A stretch of 64,000 nt of DNA from the human T2T-CHM13v2.0 reference genome, Homo sapiens, in NCBI RefSeq assembly GCF_009914755.1, contig NC_060925.1; one strand, given 5' to 3'. Below the pieces are notes generated by a model, which worked only from the letters and a program-made list of their open reading frames with translations, was not told the DNA's origin and ran no database searches. Shown here piece by piece: positions 29,756 through 38,002 of the stretch (position 1 is the first letter of the stretch; each line of letters begins with the position of its first letter). A program made the translations under genes and the position numbers.

Positions 29756-32005
29756 AAGAAATTGTAATACAAAATATTTTCTATTAACAAATTCTATTTC
29801 ATCTTTAGCAAAATCTTTTTGGTTTTCTTTCTTCATGTTCTATGGCAAAATACTCACATTTGTTTAACTTGGTACTTGATATTTTTCTGTAGTTGAAGTC
29901 AATTGCTTAATAAGTTCGCCTTTAATCTTTCTAAAGCTAATTTAGGTTTTTAAAAAATGTATCGTATCTGACAACATTTACCTTTTACTTTAATGCACAT
30001 GCAGTCAGTCTGCTAGACATCAGTGCCTTATTTCTGGCCATTTTTCTGGCCTTATCACCTATGAATATCCTTCTGTCTATGCCTTATCATGCAATTATAC
30101 AGTCGCTAGTGGTTTCTTTCTCTTCTCAGAGTAGTACTGACTCTACCATATCAGTGTGACAGGTTACACATTTCTAACAGAAATGTGCAATGGTGACTAT
30201 GGTGTTGACCAATAGTATGAGAAAGTTATCCATTTAAGATTGTTTCAACAAATCAAATGCTTTTCAAACTATAATGTTTATTTCAACAATAAAGAATGTT
30301 AAATCACCAAAACACATATAATTGTATCAATATACAATTGTAAGAGTAAAGATTTTTTTAAAAGCAATGATAGCATATGATTTGAGCATCTCCTTTTCTC
30401 TCACTGGGAATAAGCTAGCCTGACACAGTTACTTGAATAATTCATGAGAGAAGAATAAAAGATTTATCAATAAAAAACAGGGTCAAGTTCTATTGAGGAG
30501 CTTTGGAATATAAGTATATGCTAGAGCAGCTTCAGAAGAGAGTTATATATTTGAATGCTCAATTTAAATTTCCATCCACTGCAGGTCTTTATTAATAACT
30601 TAATATAAGCAATTCCCACCCCACCACAAAGTCTGTGATTTCAGAATCACTGATTTTTAAATGTTGCTCTTGGGAAAAATCTTCTCATGACTATAAAATA
30701 ATTTTTAACTATGTCAGTTTTTAAGAATCACTCCAGTATTCTTAACAAAATAGGAGAAGTGTTTCCTCCCTACAGAGGTACTTGCATAGCTTTACGTAGC
30801 ATGACGTTTCAGGAGAGACTACCAAATAGATTTCTTGTCATCTACATATGATGTGATGCTTTGCTCATATATGAATGAATATATTTATGCTACATATACT
30901 CATACCTGGTGAAGCTATAGGTGAACAAGACCACATGTGTGATTACACTGCAGGTATACATTTACCAGGAGAAGAACTGTCAATGAATGCTCCTGCATAC
31001 AGCAATCCTAACTACCATGACAGGTTGCTGCCAAGCAAACAGGGGCATTCCAGAGATAGCACAACTGCCAAAATGCAAGACAAATGTTTTTAGAATTAGT
31101 AATAAATCACATTAGCTGTCTCAAATTTCTCCTTAGTGTATTGATTAAAATTAAGTAATTAGTTAGAATTATAATATCGACACATATAAATGTTAAGCTT
31201 ATAGATAAAAGGAAATTGGCACTATGGATTCTCAGGGTGATGTTTAACAGTGATAGGGATGAACTGAATTTAGAAAACTCACCTGCTAAGCATCTTGAGA
31301 AATTACCACAAGTATTTTACACAAGCATTTTGACCATCACAATTTCCTTTGTAAAGGCTTTTGTTCTTGTTGTTTCTTTCAAATCCTTTCCTCCCAGGAA
31401 ATCTTCTGGCACAAGGCATGGTATAATGTTAAGTTGTTGGCCACTTTTAATCACATTGTCCTAAGAGTGCCATAGTGTCAGAGTACAGATTATTTAAAAC
31501 TTATCATTAACTCTTATTAATAATAGTGAACACACATATAAGAATTCACAAGACATATGTGTGATAATACACAACAGAAGGATTGTATTGGTCCTTAAAA
31601 TCATATAATGATTTTTATCACCATAATTGTCTGCATACATTTGACAGTTTATTGTTCATAAGTGGAAATGATGAAAGGCAGACTTTTGAGACTGGGAAGG
31701 CTAATGTCCCTAAAACAAGTTGTTCGTCATCCTATCCGTGGTTTCAATATCCTAACAATGCTGCAGAACTCTTTACAAGTTTTGTGCAGTTTAACAAATG
31801 TGAATTCATAGTATAGAGAACAAAATATAATCCTTAATATTCACTCAATCTTGTATTTCAATGAATAATTTAAAAATATAATATCACTATACATGACTAA
31901 CCTTCAAAACCAGATCGTTTTTAATCCTTGGGAATTTTTGCTCATTAACTTAGAATTGACTAGGAATAGCATATATACAAAAGAAATATTAAATTAAAAA
32001 CAATT

Positions 32006-32315
32006 GGCCGGGCGCGGTGGCTCACGCTTGTAATCCCAGCACTTTGGGAGGCTGAGGCGGGCGGATCACGAGGTCAGGAGATCGAGACCACGGTGAAACC
32101 CCGTCTCTACTAAAAATACAAAAAAAAATTAGCCGGGCTTGGGGGCGGGCGCCTGTAGTCCAAGCTACTCCGAGAGGCCGAGGCAGGAGAATGGCGTGAA
32201 CCCGGGAGTAGGAGGTTGCAGTGAGCGGAGATCGCGCCTCTGCACCCCAGCCTGGGCGACAGAGCGAGACTCTGTCTCAAAAAAAAAATTAAAATAAAAA
32301 AAATTTTAAAAAAAG
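32006..32315 (+). mobile_element. AluYd-lineage element (Yd3a1-like)
   Basis: 12-bp left-arm deletion (gagaccacggtgaaacccc), cacgcTtgtaatc and an extra base in ctactccgagagg. TSD aaacaatt. Confidence 0.85.
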
Positions 32316-33493
32316 AAACAATTTCACCATCTCCCTTGCTGAGAACATTTGTATAAGGAAGAGTGGATTGAGACAGAATGAGCCAGGTCTTCACTGTAAA
32401 TAGTATTTTGTGAATTATAACTACAAATGTTGAAAGTTGTGTTCTTATGATTTTAATATATTGCAGGTATACTGTCAGAAATGGCAAAATAGCAATTTTT
32501 CAAATTCCCTACCATGTAGTGAGAGATGATTTCTTAATTTAGTAGGATCTGATAACAGCTATGAAAAATTCATAATTTCAGATGAGCAATGAACTTTTTT
32601 TATTATACCTAGGTGTGTATATCAGCTTTGAATTAAACTATGCATTTCATGAGCAGTCATACATTACTGTTATTTCCATCCATTTCCTTGAAATAATATC
32701 TGATGATAATAATAGTTAATATTTATTTTATAAATATTATGTTCTAAGGACTCTATATGGGCTGTATTTGCATATATCCCTTTTATTCCTTAGAATAACC
32801 CTGTTTATAACATAGATTTTATCCCTGATACACTTGGAGATGTTGTGTCTTGCCCAAAATAACAGAGAGTGGCAGTGGCTGACCCAGTATGTGAATGCAG
32901 GACAAAACATGTTTTGAAGACAGAGGTTTCGGTCATAAGCATAAAAACAAGAATTATAATAGATTAAGGCTTACAGAATGATATAGCCTATTATGCCATT
33001 AATCCCCAGATGTAATCAAGAACAAAGCTATAGTCTTTGAATGATGAAAGCTAAGATTCACAGGTGGTTTGGGGTGAAAATAGTCTTTATTAAATACATC
33101 AGCAATTGACCTAAGGGCTTCCTTATAATTAAACACCTGCTCACCCTACTACTTTTATGTACATGAATCCTTGAGGAGAAAAGTGGTAACATCTCTAGAC
33201 TTCCTTGAAATACATTACTTTGAAAAAATAAATTCTCGGAAATGTTTAAGTAAACATAAATTTGTAACGGGACTCATTCAGTTCAACCTGCATATATTCA
33301 ATGTCTTTAATGCATAATGCACAGCACTGGTTTATTGCAATAAAAAGTTGTATAAATGAAATCCTTCCCTCACGTTACCCTCAATGCAGTGGGATAGACA
33401 AACAAGGATTTATGACTATTTGATAAATGTTAAGATAGGGGTATAGCCATGGTACCATTGAAGCAGAAAATACGGCTCAAATATGAATCTGCC

Positions 33494-34031
33494 TGTTTCA
33501 GTCCGGTTTGATCCGAGAAGCATAACCACTAGAAGATAAGGTAAAATCACACGACAAGGTGTTCTGGAGGAAAGATGGGCACAAAGTGTGGGAAATGAGG
33601 AAACATTAGAACATGCAAGGGTGAGCCAAAATCCACTAGGATGGACATTGGTGCCAGTGTCTCTTCACCCATAAACTCCCCACCTCTAAACTGATGATAG
33701 TGGTGGTCTGTATGAAAGGTCGTGCCTTTCAATTCTGAGCTAAATATGCACCTAGTCATGGAGTCAGTGAGGTGGAAGACAGAGGTCCAGCCAGAGAAGG
33801 AAGAACTGCAGTCCTGGCTGCTGCCCTGCACCAACACAATAAGCCTGCAAAAAAGTGACCACAATGTGTCTATGGTCTCTGCACCAATGATCTTCTGTGT
33901 AAAACAGGGATACCCACCTGTTCTGCCATCTATTTCTCCTACCAAAAAAAAAATGTTTGTGGCTCACTATAATTAGAAATATAAAAGAGGGGAATTATGG
34001 GAAATGTAGTTCCGGCTTAGCTAAATTGACA
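33494..34031 (-). mobile_element. Old ERVL LTR (MLT2E/F-like)
   Basis: Begins tgtttcagtccggttt...agaagcataaccactag and ends gggaaatgtagttccggcttagctaaattgaca, like a reverse-strand MLT2. Confidence 0.6.
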
Positions 34032-34704
34032 ATGGAAATCCACCTCACTGCCTGAATATTTAAGGGAGGTTAGATAGAAGAGATGGGTAATCTGAATGAA
34101 TAACACATTCGCAAGTTGATAAGAATACAATTATATTTGAACAATGCTTGTTATTATAGAAGAAATGTGTCAGGTACCCATACAGAGATACAAAATACTC
34201 CCAATTTTTCTGAATGCTAACAATTTTCACTTTTATTTTATACTTTATGGTTGCTTTAAAATGTGAACTATTGCAAAGTGTCCTATGCTAGTAATGTTTA
34301 CTTTCTAAATATCAAATGAGGATTTTACATATAAATTTTAAATAGGTGAATGAATTATCATAGCTTAAGATGAGGGTGGTAAGATGTCACACACACAATA
34401 ATGTGCATTCAATATTTTTGAATTGCAATGCGAATGCCATTAAAATGAATGCTATATTTATGATGCAATAGAAAATAAGCTCTTTAAAAACACATTAAAA
34501 AAAAACACGAACCACGTCAAAATGAGTTTTTATAATGAAAATGTAATAAAAGAATACTGTTTTTTGTTTATGTGTTCTTTTTACATAGGCAAATCAGAAA
34601 ATTTTATGTTCACAAACCAATCTATGCCAGTTATAATAAATAAAAAATAAATAACTCTTGATAGAAGGAGGTTGAAAAACCAGCTCCCCGGCTTAGATGA
34701 GAAG

Positions 34705-34905
34705 GCATTACAGCAGAGTAGAAGCTTATGTCAAGAATTTGAACCAGCATCCCCGCATTCACATCCTGACTCTGCACTGTGTATCCTGATACAGTTTACT
34801 GAATGTCACTGAGTCTCAGTTTTTCATCTGTTAATAGGGGCAATGATACTGTTTAGGCCACATAGCTTGATTTTAAATAGAGACTAAATAAAATATTTTA
34901 TATAA
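34705..34905 (+). mobile_element. MIR
   Basis: ctgagtctcagtttttcatctgttaatagggg core. Confidence 0.7.
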
Positions 34906-35115
34906 ACGCAATCTGTTGAGTACTTATTAAGCACTAAGCACCATGGAACTCTTTTGAAAAGTGTAAGATTTTAAGCCCTGGAGCCATGGGGAAGGTGAGT
35001 TTGGCTTAAATCACTATGTTTTTATCAGCCCTCTCCCTTCCCTGGAGTCACATGAGTTCTACATGATGTCCCTACAATTTTATTTTTGTGATGTGCAAAC
35101 TAGAAGTATCTAAAG

Positions 35116-35222
35116 AACATTATGCTAAGTTAAATAAGTAGGACACAGAAAGATAAATGTTGCATGATCTCACTTACATGTGGAATCTAAAAGAATTTAA
35201 ATTCATAGAAACAGAGAGTAGG
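35116..35222 (+). mobile_element. Short L1M 3' fragment
   Basis: acattatgctaagttaaataag...gcatgatctcacttacatgtggaatctaaaa. Confidence 0.8.
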
Positions 35223-35310
35223 TCTTGAATATAACACACCTTGTTTCACCTTGTTCCTTCCCTCGATGTGATAATTACATTAATAGTTTTGACACCAGTT
35301 GCAATGGTCA

Positions 35311-35537
35311 CACTGACTCCATGACTAGGTGCATATTTAGCTCAGAATTGAAAGGCACGACCTTTCATAGAGACCACCAGTCTGTGTAGCGAGGGCACCA
35401 GTCTGTGTAGCGAGGGCTACACAGATGGCGAGGGGGGGGCCCTACACTGTAAGGTGGAATATAATTGTGTTGGAGCAGGGCAGCAGCCAGGACTGCAGTT
35501 CTTCCTTCTCTGGCTGGACCTCTGTTTTCCACCTCAC
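35311..35537. other. Complex templated insertion: inverted, circularly permuted copy of 33701-33840 plus a TJP3 fragment
   Basis: 35311-35379 is the reverse complement of 33701-33769 (68/69). 35464-35537 is the reverse complement of 33767-33840 (72/74). 35410-35447 matches the reverse complement of 36483-36520 (34/38). Confidence 0.93.
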
Positions 35538-36073
35538 AGTCATCAAAGCTTTAACCAGATCTTCTATTTTGTTAATTTATTTTCTTCTACAAATGCCCTA
35601 GAAGTAACCATGTGAAGATATATATGTGTGTATATAACTGTTCTGTTTCTATGCTGATTCCTCATGAATTTTTGCCCTAGAGATTATCATCATTCATCAC
35701 TTTTGTGCTAAACAATTCGTATGTGTTAACTACCAAATCTATATATTGTGATTTATATAGATAAATATATAGACAGGCAATATATAAATATACATATGAT
35801 GTGTGTATATATCAATATCTATACTTCTCTATAGCTCTCTGTATAACACTATATGTATCTAAATCTATACCCCTTTCTCTTGAACCACAAATCTGCTTTT
35901 TCAAATAACTGTTCATTCTTAACGTTTCCATGTTCCAAACTCAATTATATATAACAGTCTATCCACCACATAAAATCTCATATGTTTTCTATTGCTATAA
36001 TCCTAGATTTTACAAGCCTTGCTACCCTGAGGTACCCAATAAAATAATTGATTTTATCATTTATTTAATCTTA

Positions 36074-36838
36074 TTTTTTTTTTTTTTGGTGTGAAAATAC
36101 TCTGTTTAATAAAGACCAGGCGGAGGGAGGTGAGGTTGTGGGTTCTGTACAGGAAACTGAGTCCCAGCCCCAGGAAGGGAGAAGGAGGACGGACCAGCTG
36201 GCAGCCTGGGAGAGGTCACAGGTCAGTGGCCGGACCCCAGTCGTAGCCATCTTCATCGGGGACTCCGCATCGCGGACTCGTGTAAACTTTTTCTTCAGGG
36301 CTTCCGGTTCACAGGTTCGCATGCTGTCCTGTCGCCTCTGACCCTGGGGGTGGGGGCTGTCCACTTGGGGCCCCTGATGAGCCGAGATTCTCCCACGAAC
36401 CCTCGGGCTCTGGGGCTCATCTGCTTGCACGGGCTCTGAGGACCTGTCCAGGGCTGGAGCCGGGAGCTCATCATCCGCATCCGTGTAGGGCCCCCCGCTA
36501 GCCGTCTGTGTAGCGCTCGCCATCAGTGTACGCGCCGCCCTCGCCTTCCGTCTCCTCCAGTAGTCGCTGTTAACACGGCTGTCGCAGCTGAGGTCAGCAG
36601 AGCTGTCGGCCAGGCCGCGGTGAGGGTTGTCCTCCAAGGAGCCATCCAGCTTATCTTCCGCCGTCCAGATGGGCCGCGTCTGCTGCTCTCGAATGATAGC
36701 CTTGAACTCCTGGTACCAGGTGTCACTCGTGCCATTCAGAGGGATGGTGGCTGTGAAGAGGTGGCTGCTCTGCTTCCGCAGCTTCTGGGCTTGTGCGTAG
36801 AGGCGGCGGGTACTGCGGCAGGAGGCAGGCGCCAGCCA
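36074..36838 (-). pseudogene. TJP3: 5'-truncated processed pseudogene of tight junction protein ZO-3 (end of GuK domain, acidic region, C-terminus and 3' UTR)
   Basis: Translates as WLAPASCRSTRRLYAQAQKLRKQSSHLFTATIPLNGTSDTWYQEFKAIIREQQTRPIWTAED...LADSSADLSCDSRVNSDY...EALKKKF...DEDGYDWGPATDL* (parental stop at 36216-36218). ATTAAA at 36105-36110 and A14 tail at 36074-36087, no introns, several indels versus the recalled TJP3 protein. Confidence 0.93.
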
Positions 36839-36892
36839 ACTTAGCTCCTTCTAAATTGTCCTCATACATCCAGTGATTTTCAGGTAGTATTT

Positions 36893-38002
36893 TTAGTGTT
36901 CAGGTTTATTGAGGTTTAATTGAAAAATTAAAATTGTATATATTCGGAGTATATAACACAATGTTCTGACACACATATACATTGTGAAATAATTAACATA
37001 AGCTAATTACCAGATCCACCACCTCACATCGTTACTCTATGCGTGTGTATTGTGGGAATCTACTCTCTTAACAAAAGTCAAATATACATTTTAGTTCACT
37101 ATAGTTACCATGCTGTATATTAGGTCTTCATCACTTATTCGTTTTATAATTTTAAGTTTATACCCTTTGATCAACATCACTACATTTCCCCTACCCTCTC
37201 TACCCACCCTGATCCCTGGTAACCTTCCTTCTACTCTGTTTCTATGAGTTTAATTTTTTTTAGATTCCACATATTAGTGAGTTCATGCAATATTTGTATT
37301 TCTGTGTCTGACTTATTTCACTTAGTATAATGTCCTCCAGGTAAATCTCTGTTGTTGCAAATGGCAGGATTTTCATGTTTTTAAGACTGAATAATATTCC
37401 ATTGTGTGTGTGTGTTATACACACTCACAGAGGCACACACACACTACTTTTTTATGCATTTATCCATTGATGGACACTTAAGTTGTTTCCACATCTTGAC
37501 TATTGTAAATAATGCTGCACTGAACATCAGAGTGGAGGTATCTCTTTGAGATAGTGATTTTATAAGGGATCAATATCCAATATATAAGGAACTCAAACAA
37601 CTCAATAGCAAAAATAACAACAAAAAAGAAACAAGTAATTTAAAGATAGCAAAGGAGTAGACACTTAAATGCACAGTTTTTTCAGAGAAGACATACAAAT
37701 GGCCAACAGATATATGAAAAGGTGCTCAACATTGCTAATCATCAGGGAAATGCAAATCAAAACCACAATGAGATATTGCCTCATATTTGTTAGGATGGCT
37801 ATTGTCAAAAAGTCAAAAGATAACAAGCATTGATGAGGATGAGGTGAAAAGAAAACCCATATACATTGTTCATGTAAAAGTAAATTGGCACAGTCATTAT
37901 GGAAAACAGTATGGAAGCTCCTCAAAAAACTACAAATAGAATAACCATATGACCCAGCAATCCCACTTCTGAATATATATTTTAAAGAAATAAAATCAGT
38001 AG
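36893..38002 (-). mobile_element. L1MA-type element with a 5' inversion (36893-37560 minus, 37561-38002 plus)
   Basis: The two oppositely oriented segments are contiguous in L1 coordinates at aaatca(c/g)ta. gtagtat recurs at 36884 and 37999. Confidence 0.85.

What the first reader, a model, noticed from the sequence alone, without database searches (positions are those of the whole stretch)
35311..35537. Circularly permuted, inverted copy of a nearby LTR segment: footprint of a re-integrated DNA circle of about 224 bp
Seen: read on the minus strand, the donor 33840->33701 has order B then A, with the two parts overlapping in CAC. Here the order is A (35311-35379, 68/69), an 84-bp joint, then B (35464-35537, 72/74), and CAC occurs at both ends of the insert. 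The donor is an ancient LTR, so about 98% identity means a recent local copy rather than a second family member. Inference: the donor ends were joined via the 84-bp joint into a circle in the microDNA/eccDNA size range. That circle then opened at CAC and integrated through 3-bp microhomology into ggtca[cac]agtc. The alternative is FoSTeS/MMBIR or Pol-theta serial template switching.
Basis: partly seen in the sequence, partly recalled or inferred. Interest (0 to 1): 0.85.

Follow-up and report, generated by a model that had tools for sequence, protein, structure and literature searches.

The report
Patchwork insertion copied from three neighbours
A 227-base insertion in a gene-poor part of human chromosome 1 is a real, old repair scar stitched from inverted copies of two nearby sequences, and it looks more like a polymerase hopping between templates than a re-inserted DNA circle.

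Summary
35311-35379 (68/69) and 35464-35537 (72/74) are inverted copies of 33701-33769 and 33767-33840, in swapped order, with CAC at both outer ends. They are the donor's only close matches in the genome.

The 84-bp "joint" is not anonymous filler.
- It holds 38 nt of TJP3 sequence, inverted relative to the TJP3 processed pseudogene 1 kb downstream.
- It holds an 11-bp snap-back hairpin.
- It holds an exact 21-nt tandem duplication that spans the end of arm A.
- It holds 16 nt I could not assign.

All three assignable pieces are inverted relative to a local template. This is the signature of serial, microhomology-primed template switching. A circle stays possible at about 0.2.

The donor lies in an ancient dispersed repeat whose other copies are about 60% identical. 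I could not test whether it is an LTR, or of which family.

The TJP3 piece keeps the parental base at all 3 sites where the pseudogene later changed. That dates the event to 0.23-1.0 of the pseudogene's age, so it is not especially recent.

It is an ordinary kind of event with an unusually legible example.

The parts
33593..34005 (-). The bounds are the outer limits of homology to two paralogues. The high-coordinate bound may be cut short by the limit of the fetched paralogue.
   Evidence: A translated whole-genome search with the open frame 33550-33945(-) found 4 weak dispersed hits besides itself and the arms. nhmmer against L052 gave E 3.6e-14 and against L053 E 1.6e-10. blastn gave 60-61% identity (alignment).
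33701..33840 (-). Donor (template) segment, contiguous. Read on the minus strand the order is B (33840->33767) then A (33769->33701).
   Evidence: Paralogue L052 aligns colinearly across the A/B boundary.
35311..35379 (+). Arm A, an inverted copy of 33701-33769, 68/69 identical. It begins with CAC.
35375..35417 (+). Exact tandem duplication, period 21, 2.0 copies. It spans the junction between the last 5 nt of arm A and the first 16 nt of the joint, so it was made after or while that junction formed.
   Evidence: TRF, 100% matches; D3.
35401..35426 (+). Snap-back palindrome: an 11-nt stem (35401-35411) pairs with 35416-35426 across a 4-nt loop. The same 11-mer also occurs at 35380-35390 through the duplication.
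   Evidence: DNA fold of 35365-35470, -22.2 kcal/mol, z = -4.0, 0 of 200 shuffles as stable.
35410..35447 (+). 38-nt piece of TJP3 coding sequence, sense on the + strand and so inverted relative to the neighbouring pseudogene.
   Evidence: I4 (89% to 36483-36520); chr19:3727176-3727212, 95%, E 1.6e-6 genome-wide, inside TJP3. Three-way alignment.
35448..35463 (+). 16 nt with no assignable template (orphan).
   Evidence: The longest match within +-3 kb is 8 nt, and the null median over 200 shuffles is also 8.
35464..35537 (+). Arm B, an inverted copy of 33767-33840, 72/74 identical. It ends with CAC.
36483..36520 (-). Site in the TJP3 processed pseudogene that corresponds to the 38-nt piece in the joint.
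   Evidence: I4.
36087..36838 (-). LOC126987, a 5'-truncated processed pseudogene of TJP3. It is made of five spliced exon blocks and has a T-run on the + strand just below 36087. It is the likely source lineage of the 38-nt piece.
   Evidence: Public annotation. (exon-by-exon matches to chr19). (41 mismatches in 742 aligned sites, 17 gap columns).

Best explanation
This is a neutral scar of one error-prone, synthesis-dependent repair or replication-restart event in the primate germline, of the MMBIR/FoSTeS class, possibly with Pol-theta-like steps. A broken or stalled 3' end at about 35310 left its template at a CAC. It primed on the matching CAC of an old repeat copy 1.5 kb upstream and copied 69 nt. 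It then dissociated and re-primed several times. One re-priming copied 38 nt of the TJP3 pseudogene 1 kb downstream. Another was a snap-back on its own product (11-bp hairpin). Another was a 21-nt re-copy, and 16 nt came from no identifiable template. It then copied a second 74-nt stretch of the same repeat, starting 71 nt upstream of the first entry point. It ran until its end again read CAC, which let it re-anneal to the original target. Leaving and returning at the same CAC is what makes the two repeat-derived pieces look cyclically permuted. Shown: the identities, polarities, boundaries, hairpin, duplication, uniqueness of the source and relative dating. Inferred: that it was a single event, the initiating lesion, the order of the switches, the use of CAC as microhomology (no empty site was available) and the polymerase. 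No function is expected. The old repeat was only a passive template.
For: (1) Three of the three assignable segments are inverted relative to a local template 1.0-1.6 kb away, and the templates lie on both sides of the target. An insertion that is inverted, close to its template and flanked by microhomology is the MMB-TI signature, and complex events with several consecutive switches are described (PMC8421209, passages). (2) The joint holds a snap-back hairpin (z = -4.0), an exact 21-nt re-copy across a junction and an unassignable 16-mer. These match the in-cis, in-trans and non-templated modes between which Pol theta oscillates (PMC4912351, passages). (3) Switching among at least 3 templates is needed for the joint under any model. 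(4) CAC occurs only 4 times in the 140-nt donor, so exit and return at the same CAC is roughly a 1-in-4 coincidence, not an extreme one (my inference). (5) 5 of the 7 copy-versus-template differences are transversions (binomial p = 0.045). The two arm mismatches nearest the joint lie 10 and 11 nt from it. Both fit low-fidelity synthesis, which replicative rearrangement is reported to show (PMC4352052, passages).
Against: No empty site could be examined, so the CAC microhomology and the absence of an accompanying deletion are assumptions. The inner junctions show 0-2 nt of microhomology; for example, the junction from the end of arm A to the joint has none. The templates lie 1.0-1.6 kb away, whereas MMBSearch looks within 100 bp and short-range template switches have a median copied length of 12 nt and a maximum of 128 (PMC7954356). 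The 69-74-nt tracts are far longer than typical Pol-theta insertions, whose median is 7 bp. A second entry into the same donor that ends exactly at the first entry point is explained naturally by a circle. The excess of transversions is barely significant and rests on 7 sites.
Confidence: 0.6

Rival explanations
1. A circle of about 224 bp, in the microDNA size range, carried donor 33701-33840 closed by the 84-bp joint. It opened at CAC and integrated, inverted, at a CAC in the target by 3-bp microhomology.
For: The source order is cyclically permuted with a 3-nt terminal redundancy. This is the criterion used to call 'eccDNA-mediated' AB->BA insertions: 82 of 327 source-resolved polymorphic insertions, mostly intrachromosomal, with enrichment of terminal microhomology (bioRxiv 10.64898/2026.09.03.749254, sections 7 and 29 read in full). 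The same logic was applied to large human segmental duplications (PMC7450558, abstract). Read in donor polarity, the insert is colinear with the chromosome (33701-33840, then 36483-36520, then closure), as a chimeric circle from a 2.8-kb neighbourhood would be.
Against: The closure is a patchwork of a third-locus copy, a snap-back and a re-copy, not a joint. Template switching must therefore be invoked anyway, and circle formation and re-integration are extra steps. The donor is intact, so the circle would have to be a copy. Only 143 of 227 nt (63%) come from the donor, or 181 of 227 (80%) if the TJP3 piece is counted. That is below the 95% coverage the preprint requires. The insert is inverted, whereas 79 of 80 intrachromosomal cases in that preprint share the source orientation. 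The microhomology is 3 nt, and that preprint counts 5 nt or more.
Confidence: 0.2
2. The structure has a stepwise or ligation origin. Either several independent small events accumulated at one fragile site, or non-homologous end joining captured loose fragments at one break. Those fragments would be two halves of a ~140-bp donor piece plus a TJP3 fragment, and they happened to land in this order and orientation.
For: The inner junctions have little or no microhomology. The 21-nt duplication could be a later slippage event. Two captured fragments have 8 possible order and orientation combinations, so the observed one is not very improbable (my arithmetic). AT- and TG-rich low-complexity sequence lies 60-330 bp downstream.
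Against: All three assignable pieces share one polarity. The two donor pieces overlap by the same 3 nt that flank the insert, which blunt capture does not predict. The hairpin and the re-copy across a junction point to synthesis, not ligation.
Confidence: 0.1
3. This is a timing variant of the best explanation. The patchwork was made during the same L1-driven retrotransposition that created the TJP3 pseudogene. The nascent TJP3 cDNA would have served as one template for repair of a second break about 0.55 kb from the integration site.
For: The 38-nt piece carries the parental base at 3 of the 3 sites where today's pseudogene differs from TJP3 by substitution. It has the pseudogene's length, one base longer than the parent. 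The likelihood for event age relative to pseudogene age peaks at 0.57-0.87, and 1.0 lies inside the support interval. The Bayes factor for simultaneity against a uniform date is 0.6-2.0.
Against: The arms differ from the donor at only 3 of 143 sites. At a pairwise divergence of 5.5-7%, P(3 or fewer) is 0.046-0.010. The insert is not contiguous with the pseudogene. The extra base lies in a G-run and could have arisen twice. All of this rests on 38 nt.
Confidence: 0.15
4. It is an assembly artefact in T2T-CHM13.
For: Nothing specific supports it.
Against: The insert has diverged from its templates (3 of 143 and 4 of 38 sites), and some differences are informative about ancestry. Artefactual chimeras do not show this. 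The flanks are unique sequence.
Confidence: 0.02

Closest known systems
MMBIR/FoSTeS templated insertions (MMB-TI), including complex multi-switch events (PMC8421209; model papers of Lee 2007 and Hastings 2009 seen only in a reference list)
   Same: The inserted segments are inverted copies of nearby templates. There are several consecutive switches, short or no homology at junctions, and base changes near the junctions.
   Different: The templates are 1.0-1.6 kb away rather than within 100 bp. The same donor is entered twice, giving a cyclic permutation. The event is fixed and old rather than somatic or de novo.
Short-range template switches of the four-point model in great-ape genomes (PMC7954356)
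   Same: It is a germline evolutionary event. It creates inverted repeats and hairpins, and it needs a return switch to the original template.
   Different: Those events have one excursion, a median of 12 nt and a maximum of 128, and templates within tens to hundreds of nt. Here there are at least five junctions, 227 nt and three templates.
Pol-theta-mediated end joining / synthesis-dependent MMEJ (PMC4912351 passages; PMC2943611 and PMC5728401 seen as search listings only)
   Same: It shows a snap-back tract, in-trans copying, an apparently non-templated tract and repeated dissociation and re-priming.
   Different: The reported median insertion is 7 bp. The 69-74-nt tracts and kilobase-distant templates seen here are unusual for this pathway.
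Insertions and duplications through circular intermediates: AB->BA 'eccDNA-mediated' insertions in human long-read call sets (bioRxiv 10.64898/2026.09.03.749254); A-B/C-D to B-A/D-C segmental duplications (PMC7450558); cattle colour-sidedness translocations (recalled; only citing papers were seen in the listing)
   Same: The source is cyclically permuted, intrachromosomal and nearby, with microhomology at the ends.
   Different: Here 37% of the insert is not donor sequence, the closure is a multi-template patchwork, the orientation is inverted, and the size is far smaller than the cattle and segmental-duplication cases.
Templated sequence insertions from distant loci or cDNA at double-strand breaks (Onozawa and colleagues; recalled, not read here; my one search for it failed on a formatting error)
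   Same: Foreign templated sequence, possibly derived from cDNA, fills a break.
   Different: Here all templates are local and the insert is composite.

Membership tests
eccDNA-mediated AB->BA insertion (operational definition of bioRxiv 10.64898/2026.09.03.749254) | [quoted passage not shown] | tested here: met
   The donor order is B-A and the insert order is A...B.
eccDNA-mediated AB->BA insertion (operational definition of bioRxiv 10.64898/2026.09.03.749254) | At least 95% of the inserted sequence is covered by one compact source interval (5 kb or less). | tested here: not met
   143 of 227 nt come from the donor. Counting the TJP3 piece gives 181 of 227 (source span 33701-36520). The remaining 46 nt are snap-back, re-copy and orphan sequence.
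eccDNA-mediated AB->BA insertion (operational definition of bioRxiv 10.64898/2026.09.03.749254) | A single unique source in the genome. | tested here: met
   the donor matches only itself and the two arms.
eccDNA-mediated AB->BA insertion (operational definition of bioRxiv 10.64898/2026.09.03.749254) | Same orientation as the source (typical, 79 of 80; not defining). | tested here: not met
   Both arms are inverted.
eccDNA-mediated AB->BA insertion (operational definition of bioRxiv 10.64898/2026.09.03.749254) | Physical existence of the circle. | not testable with these tools
   A fixed, old event leaves no circle, and reads and circle libraries are not available here.
MMBIR-type templated insertion (MMB-TI signature, PMC8421209) | The insertion is an inverted copy of a nearby template. 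| tested here: met
   3 of 3 assignable segments are inverted relative to local templates.
MMBIR-type templated insertion (MMB-TI signature, PMC8421209) | Microhomology at the junctions. | tested here: inconclusive
   The 3-nt CAC at both outer junctions is inferred without an empty site. The inner junctions show 0-2 nt.
   The templates are 1.0-1.6 kb away.
Pol-theta end joining | Mixture of snap-back, in-trans and non-templated tracts (PMC4912351). | tested here: met
   Hairpin, three in-trans copies and a 16-nt orphan at chance level.
Pol-theta end joining | Short insertions templated close to the break. | tested here: not met
   The insert is 227 nt in total, with tracts of 69 and 74 nt copied from 1.5 kb away.
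Solo LTR of an endogenous retrovirus (the donor) | Dispersed paralogues, i.e. it is an interspersed repeat. | tested here: met
   4 weak dispersed hits by translated search (E 1.1e-4 to 0.125). The 2 that were fetched were confirmed at the DNA level at about 60% identity.
Solo LTR of an endogenous retrovirus (the donor) | TG...CA ends with a 4-6-bp target-site duplication. | tested here: inconclusive
   There are 3 candidates per strand with 5-bp duplications, e.g. 33494-34047. That is about the number expected by chance (the expectation is my estimate).
Solo LTR of an endogenous retrovirus (the donor) | Match to a named LTR family. | not testable with these tools
   No repeat library (Dfam/Repbase/RepeatMasker) is available, and the masked-repeat table carries no names and does not cover the donor. 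A resemblance to MaLR-type LTRs is my recollection only.
Solo LTR of an endogenous retrovirus (the donor) | Neighbouring retroviral core gene remnants. | tested here: not met
   10 of the 12 ORFs of 45 aa or more in 32300-35100 were scanned in Pfam. None reached a curated cut-off and none matched a retroviral family. This is compatible with a solo LTR or with a non-LTR repeat.
Processed pseudogene (LOC126987) | Intron-less copy of spliced exons with a poly(A) tail. | tested here: met
   Five exon blocks of TJP3 are contiguous in the window. A T-run lies on the + strand next to 36087.

The most novel reading that the evidence does not exclude
The most novel reading not excluded is that the insert is the fixed germline footprint of a chimeric, microDNA-sized (~224 bp) circle. 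The circle would have been assembled from two loci 2.6 kb apart and re-integrated upside down. It might have formed during the L1-driven retrotransposition that created the neighbouring TJP3 pseudogene, with the nascent cDNA as one template. That would make it the smallest and one of the oldest circle re-insertions legible in the human reference, and it would link retrotransposition-associated breaks to local patchwork repair.
Probability: 0.2. Interest if true: 0.6.

Novelty: new member of a known kind. Interest (0 to 1): 0.33.

Why it matters
The case shows that a cyclically permuted (AB->BA) local copy, which is currently used as a signature of circle re-integration, can come with internal evidence of serial template switching. 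Permutation alone should therefore not be read as proof of a circle. The embedded TJP3 piece also acts as a small molecular fossil. It preserves an earlier state of the neighbouring pseudogene and allows the rearrangement to be dated relative to it. For the retroviral question the answer is plain. The old repeat was only a passive template, and nothing here suggests activity of any element.

Tried and rejected
(1) Empty-site proxy from paralogues. I searched the genome with 35000-35900. Only the L1-like stretch 35101-35222 has relatives. The immediate flanks are unique, so no paralogue can stand in for the pre-insertion site. No primate outgroup genome is reachable with these tools.

(2) Naming the 'LTR'.
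- The DNA search of the genome found nothing but the arms.
- nhmmer and sensitive blastn were run with the donor against the window plus fetched loci (about 120 kb), against 200 kb of flanking chromosome, and against both together. They found no relatives.
- A positive control, a stretch at 34680-34900 that I recognise from memory as MIR-like, also found nothing in the same ~320 kb. These negatives are therefore uninformative.
- Only the translated search reached distant copies.
- The TG...CA plus target-duplication scan gave chance-level candidates.
- Pfam on neighbouring ORFs and Rfam on 30-40 kb gave nothing.

(3) The inverted L1-like pair 35102-35216 / 37234-37348 (I1) was considered as part of the event and rejected. 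The local partner (86%) is no closer than unrelated genomic copies (83-87%).

(4) Twin priming or another direct by-product of pseudogene insertion was considered as the origin of the TJP3 piece. The piece lies on the poly(A) side, 0.55 kb away, and duplicates a segment the pseudogene still has. Twin priming therefore does not fit. A looser coupling is kept as a rival.

(5) The parent gene on chr19 as the direct template was rejected. The coincidence with a TJP3 pseudogene 1 kb away would be too great, and the piece has the pseudogene's length.

(6) The 16-nt orphan was tested for local templates. Its best match of 8 nt is at chance level.

(7) The supplementary table of the 2026 preprint, which lists its 82 insertions, is closed. 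It might show whether this locus is polymorphic.

Full report
OBSERVATION

- The repeat finder on 32000-38000 reports inverted pairs 33701-33769 / 35311-35379 (69 nt, 99%) and 33767-33840 / 35464-35537 (74 nt, 97%).
- Base-by-base comparison gives 1 mismatch of 69 and 2 of 74.
- Beyond each of the four arm ends, similarity to the donor continuation drops to 5-8 matches of 20.
- The donor parts overlap in 3 nt (CAC on the minus strand). CAC begins arm A and ends arm B, and the stretch between the arms is 84 nt.
- A whole-genome search with donor 33480-33960 returned three matches: itself and the two arms, at E 5.6e-25 and 3.5e-26.
- The reverse search with 35000-35900 found the donor for those stretches. 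For 35101-35222 it found only L1-like copies (40 of 3033 first-look candidates scored).

The feature is real, local and unique.

WHAT THE JOINT IS

The 84 nt are not anonymous.

(a) TJP3 piece. 35410-35447 is an inverted match (89%) to 36483-36520, inside the TJP3 processed pseudogene LOC126987 (I4). The genome search with the joint alone found one other place, chr19:3727176-3727212 (95%, E 1.6e-6). That place lies in the TJP3 gene. The only TJP3-like sequences found in the genome are the parent gene and this pseudogene.

(b) Hairpin. 35401-35411 pairs with 35416-35426 as an 11-bp stem with a 4-nt loop. Folded as DNA, 35365-35470 gives -22.2 kcal/mol against -12.9 +/- 2.3 for shuffles (z = -4.0, 0 of 200 as stable). 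The TJP3 antisense sequence itself contains a 2-nt self-complementary pair across that 4-nt loop. A nascent strand ending there could therefore fold back and copy itself (my reading).

(c) Duplication. 35375-35417 is an exact 21-nt tandem duplication (2.0 copies, 100%). Its unit is the last 5 nt of arm A plus the first 16 nt of the joint. It was therefore made after, or while, that junction formed.

(d) Orphan. 35448-35463 (16 nt) has no template. Its best local match is 8 nt, and the null median is also 8.

POLARITY

All three assignable pieces (A, B and the TJP3 piece) are inverted relative to their local templates. Those templates lie on both sides of the target, 1.5 kb upstream and 1.0 kb downstream. 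Read in donor polarity, the insert runs as follows:
- 33767->33840
- 16 unassigned nt
- 36483->36520
- the snap-back
- the re-copy
- 33701->33769

THE DONOR AND THE 'LTR'

The donor is not in the table of masked repeats. That table also misses other old repeats, so this says little. DNA-level searches found no relatives. A control with a stretch I take from memory to be MIR-like also found nothing, so these negatives are uninformative.

A translated search with the 132-codon open frame that happens to cover the donor (33550-33945, minus strand) found four weak dispersed matches besides itself and the arms:
- chr1 at 19.92 Mb, E 1.1e-4
- chr10 at 121.87 Mb, E 3.4e-3
- chr15, E 0.06
- chr11, E 0.13

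I could fetch 501 nt of the first two. At the DNA level they match the donor region with nhmmer E 3.6e-14 and 1.6e-10, at 60-61% identity. They match each other at about 60% (alignment). Homology spans about 33593-34005 and is colinear across 33767-33769.

Two conclusions follow.
- The donor lies inside a copy of an ancient dispersed repeat. About 40% pairwise difference corresponds to a Jukes-Cantor distance of about 0.55-0.57 (my arithmetic). With recalled mammalian rates, that places the family before the radiation of placental mammals.
- The donor order B-A is the ancestral one, so the insert is the derived form.

Whether the repeat is an LTR, and of which family, cannot be decided here. 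There is no repeat library. The TG...CA plus target-duplication candidates are at chance level. No retroviral domain appears in neighbouring ORFs (10 of 12 ORFs scanned). Rfam has nothing in 30-40 kb. A likeness to MaLR-type LTRs is recollection only. The arm boundaries (33701, 33840) fall inside the repeat and bear no relation to its ends. The element was therefore a passive template.

AGE

- Arms versus donor: 3 differences in 143 sites (2.1%, exact 95% interval 0.4-6.0%).
- Pseudogene versus parent: 41 differences in 742 sites (5.5%; 4.0% without CpG-type transitions), plus 17 gap columns.
- The 38-nt TJP3 piece differs from today's pseudogene at 4 sites. It differs from the parent gene at 1 site (a CpG transition) and by one extra G in a G-run.
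- At all 3 sites where the pseudogene differs from the parent by substitution, the piece has the parental base. It also has the pseudogene's length.

The piece was therefore copied from the pseudogene lineage before those three changes occurred. Errors of copying would not recreate three parental bases.

The two clocks disagree mildly (3/143 against 4/38, Fisher p = 0.036). A joint likelihood puts the event at 0.57-0.87 of the pseudogene's age. The support interval is 0.23-1.0, and P(younger than 0.3 of that age) is 0.01-0.05. Pooled divergence is 7/181 = 3.9% (interval 1.6-7.8%). With a recalled hominoid rate of about 1e-9 per site per year, this means very roughly 10-30 million years. The event is therefore not especially recent.

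There is a caveat. 5 of the 7 differences are transversions (p = 0.045). The two arm mismatches nearest the joint sit 10 and 11 nt from it. Some differences may be synthesis errors made during the event, which would make it younger than the arms suggest. This caveat does not affect the argument from the three parental bases.

MECHANISM

I favour a single synthesis-dependent event with serial template switching. The reasons are these.
- Inverted copies of nearby templates, with short junctional homology and several consecutive switches, are the described MMBIR signature (PMC8421209).
- Snap-back, in-trans and untemplated tracts are the three modes described for Pol theta (PMC4912351).
- Replicative rearrangements are reported to be error-prone near junctions (PMC4352052).
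- Template switches that create hairpins are common in great-ape evolution, although they are much shorter: median 12 nt, maximum 128 (PMC7954356).

The apparent circular permutation follows if the strand left the target at CAC and could return only when its end again read CAC. CAC occurs 4 times in the donor, so using the same one is roughly a 1-in-4 coincidence.

The following count against this reading.
- No empty site was available.
- The inner junctions have 0-2 nt of homology.
- The templates are a kilobase away.
- The tracts are long for Pol theta.
- A circle explains most simply why the start and end points coincide.

THE CIRCLE

Cyclic permutation is the criterion by which a 2026 preprint of 327 polymorphic human insertions 'eccDNA-mediated' (bioRxiv 10.64898/2026.09.03.749254, sections 7 and 29). 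Similar logic was applied to segmental duplications (PMC7450558, abstract).

This insert would fail that preprint's filter. Source coverage is 63%, or 80% with the TJP3 piece, against the 95% required. It is also inverted, whereas 79 of 80 of their intrachromosomal cases are direct. Because its closure is itself a product of template switching, a circle adds steps without adding explanation. I keep it at about 0.2.

I note as my own inference that the strong orientation bias in that preprint is not what freely re-inserting circles would predict.

OTHER RIVALS

- Stepwise growth, or end-joining capture of fragments: about 0.1.
- Coupling to the retrotransposition that made the pseudogene: a timing variant, about 0.15, not exclusive of the main explanation.
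- Misassembly: about 0.02.

VERDICT

This is a new and unusually legible member of a known kind of mutation, with no evident function. The retroviral-remnant question is answered only in part. The donor is a real and very old dispersed repeat, its family could not be named, and it played no active role.

Noticed in passing
window 36455-36560 (pseudogene, minus strand): Around the site that matches the joint, the pseudogene carries a small cluster of differences from TJP3: about 6 in about 60 nt, mostly transversions at G/C. The overall rate is 5.5%. This may be chance, or it may be damage to the template region.
   Followed up: partly
window 33547-33945, minus strand: A 132-codon open frame runs through the old repeat copy and the donor. 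It has no Pfam match. It is probably chance, but it made the translated search for paralogues possible.
   Followed up: partly
window 35102-35216 and 37234-37348: This is an inverted pair of L1-like fragments (115 nt, 83%) that bracket both the insert and the pseudogene. The local partner is no closer than unrelated genomic copies, so these are independent family members.
   Followed up: yes
window 34680-34900: This stretch looks MIR-like to me from memory. It is not in the masked-repeat table, and a single-sequence nhmmer search found no relatives in about 320 kb. That shows how blind these searches are to old repeats.
   Followed up: partly
window 35600-35870: AT- and TG-rich low-complexity sequence lies 60-330 bp downstream of the insert. 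TRF reports only a weak 10-nt repeat at 35818-35840. It could be a site where replication stalls.
   Followed up: no
chr1:105925573-105929557 (outside the window, about 155 kb upstream): Two adjacent MATR3 pseudogenes are annotated on opposite strands. This could be an inverted processed pseudogene.
   Followed up: no
window 35237-35255: A perfect 10-nt tandem repeat (1.9 copies) lies about 55 bp upstream of the insertion point.
   Followed up: no
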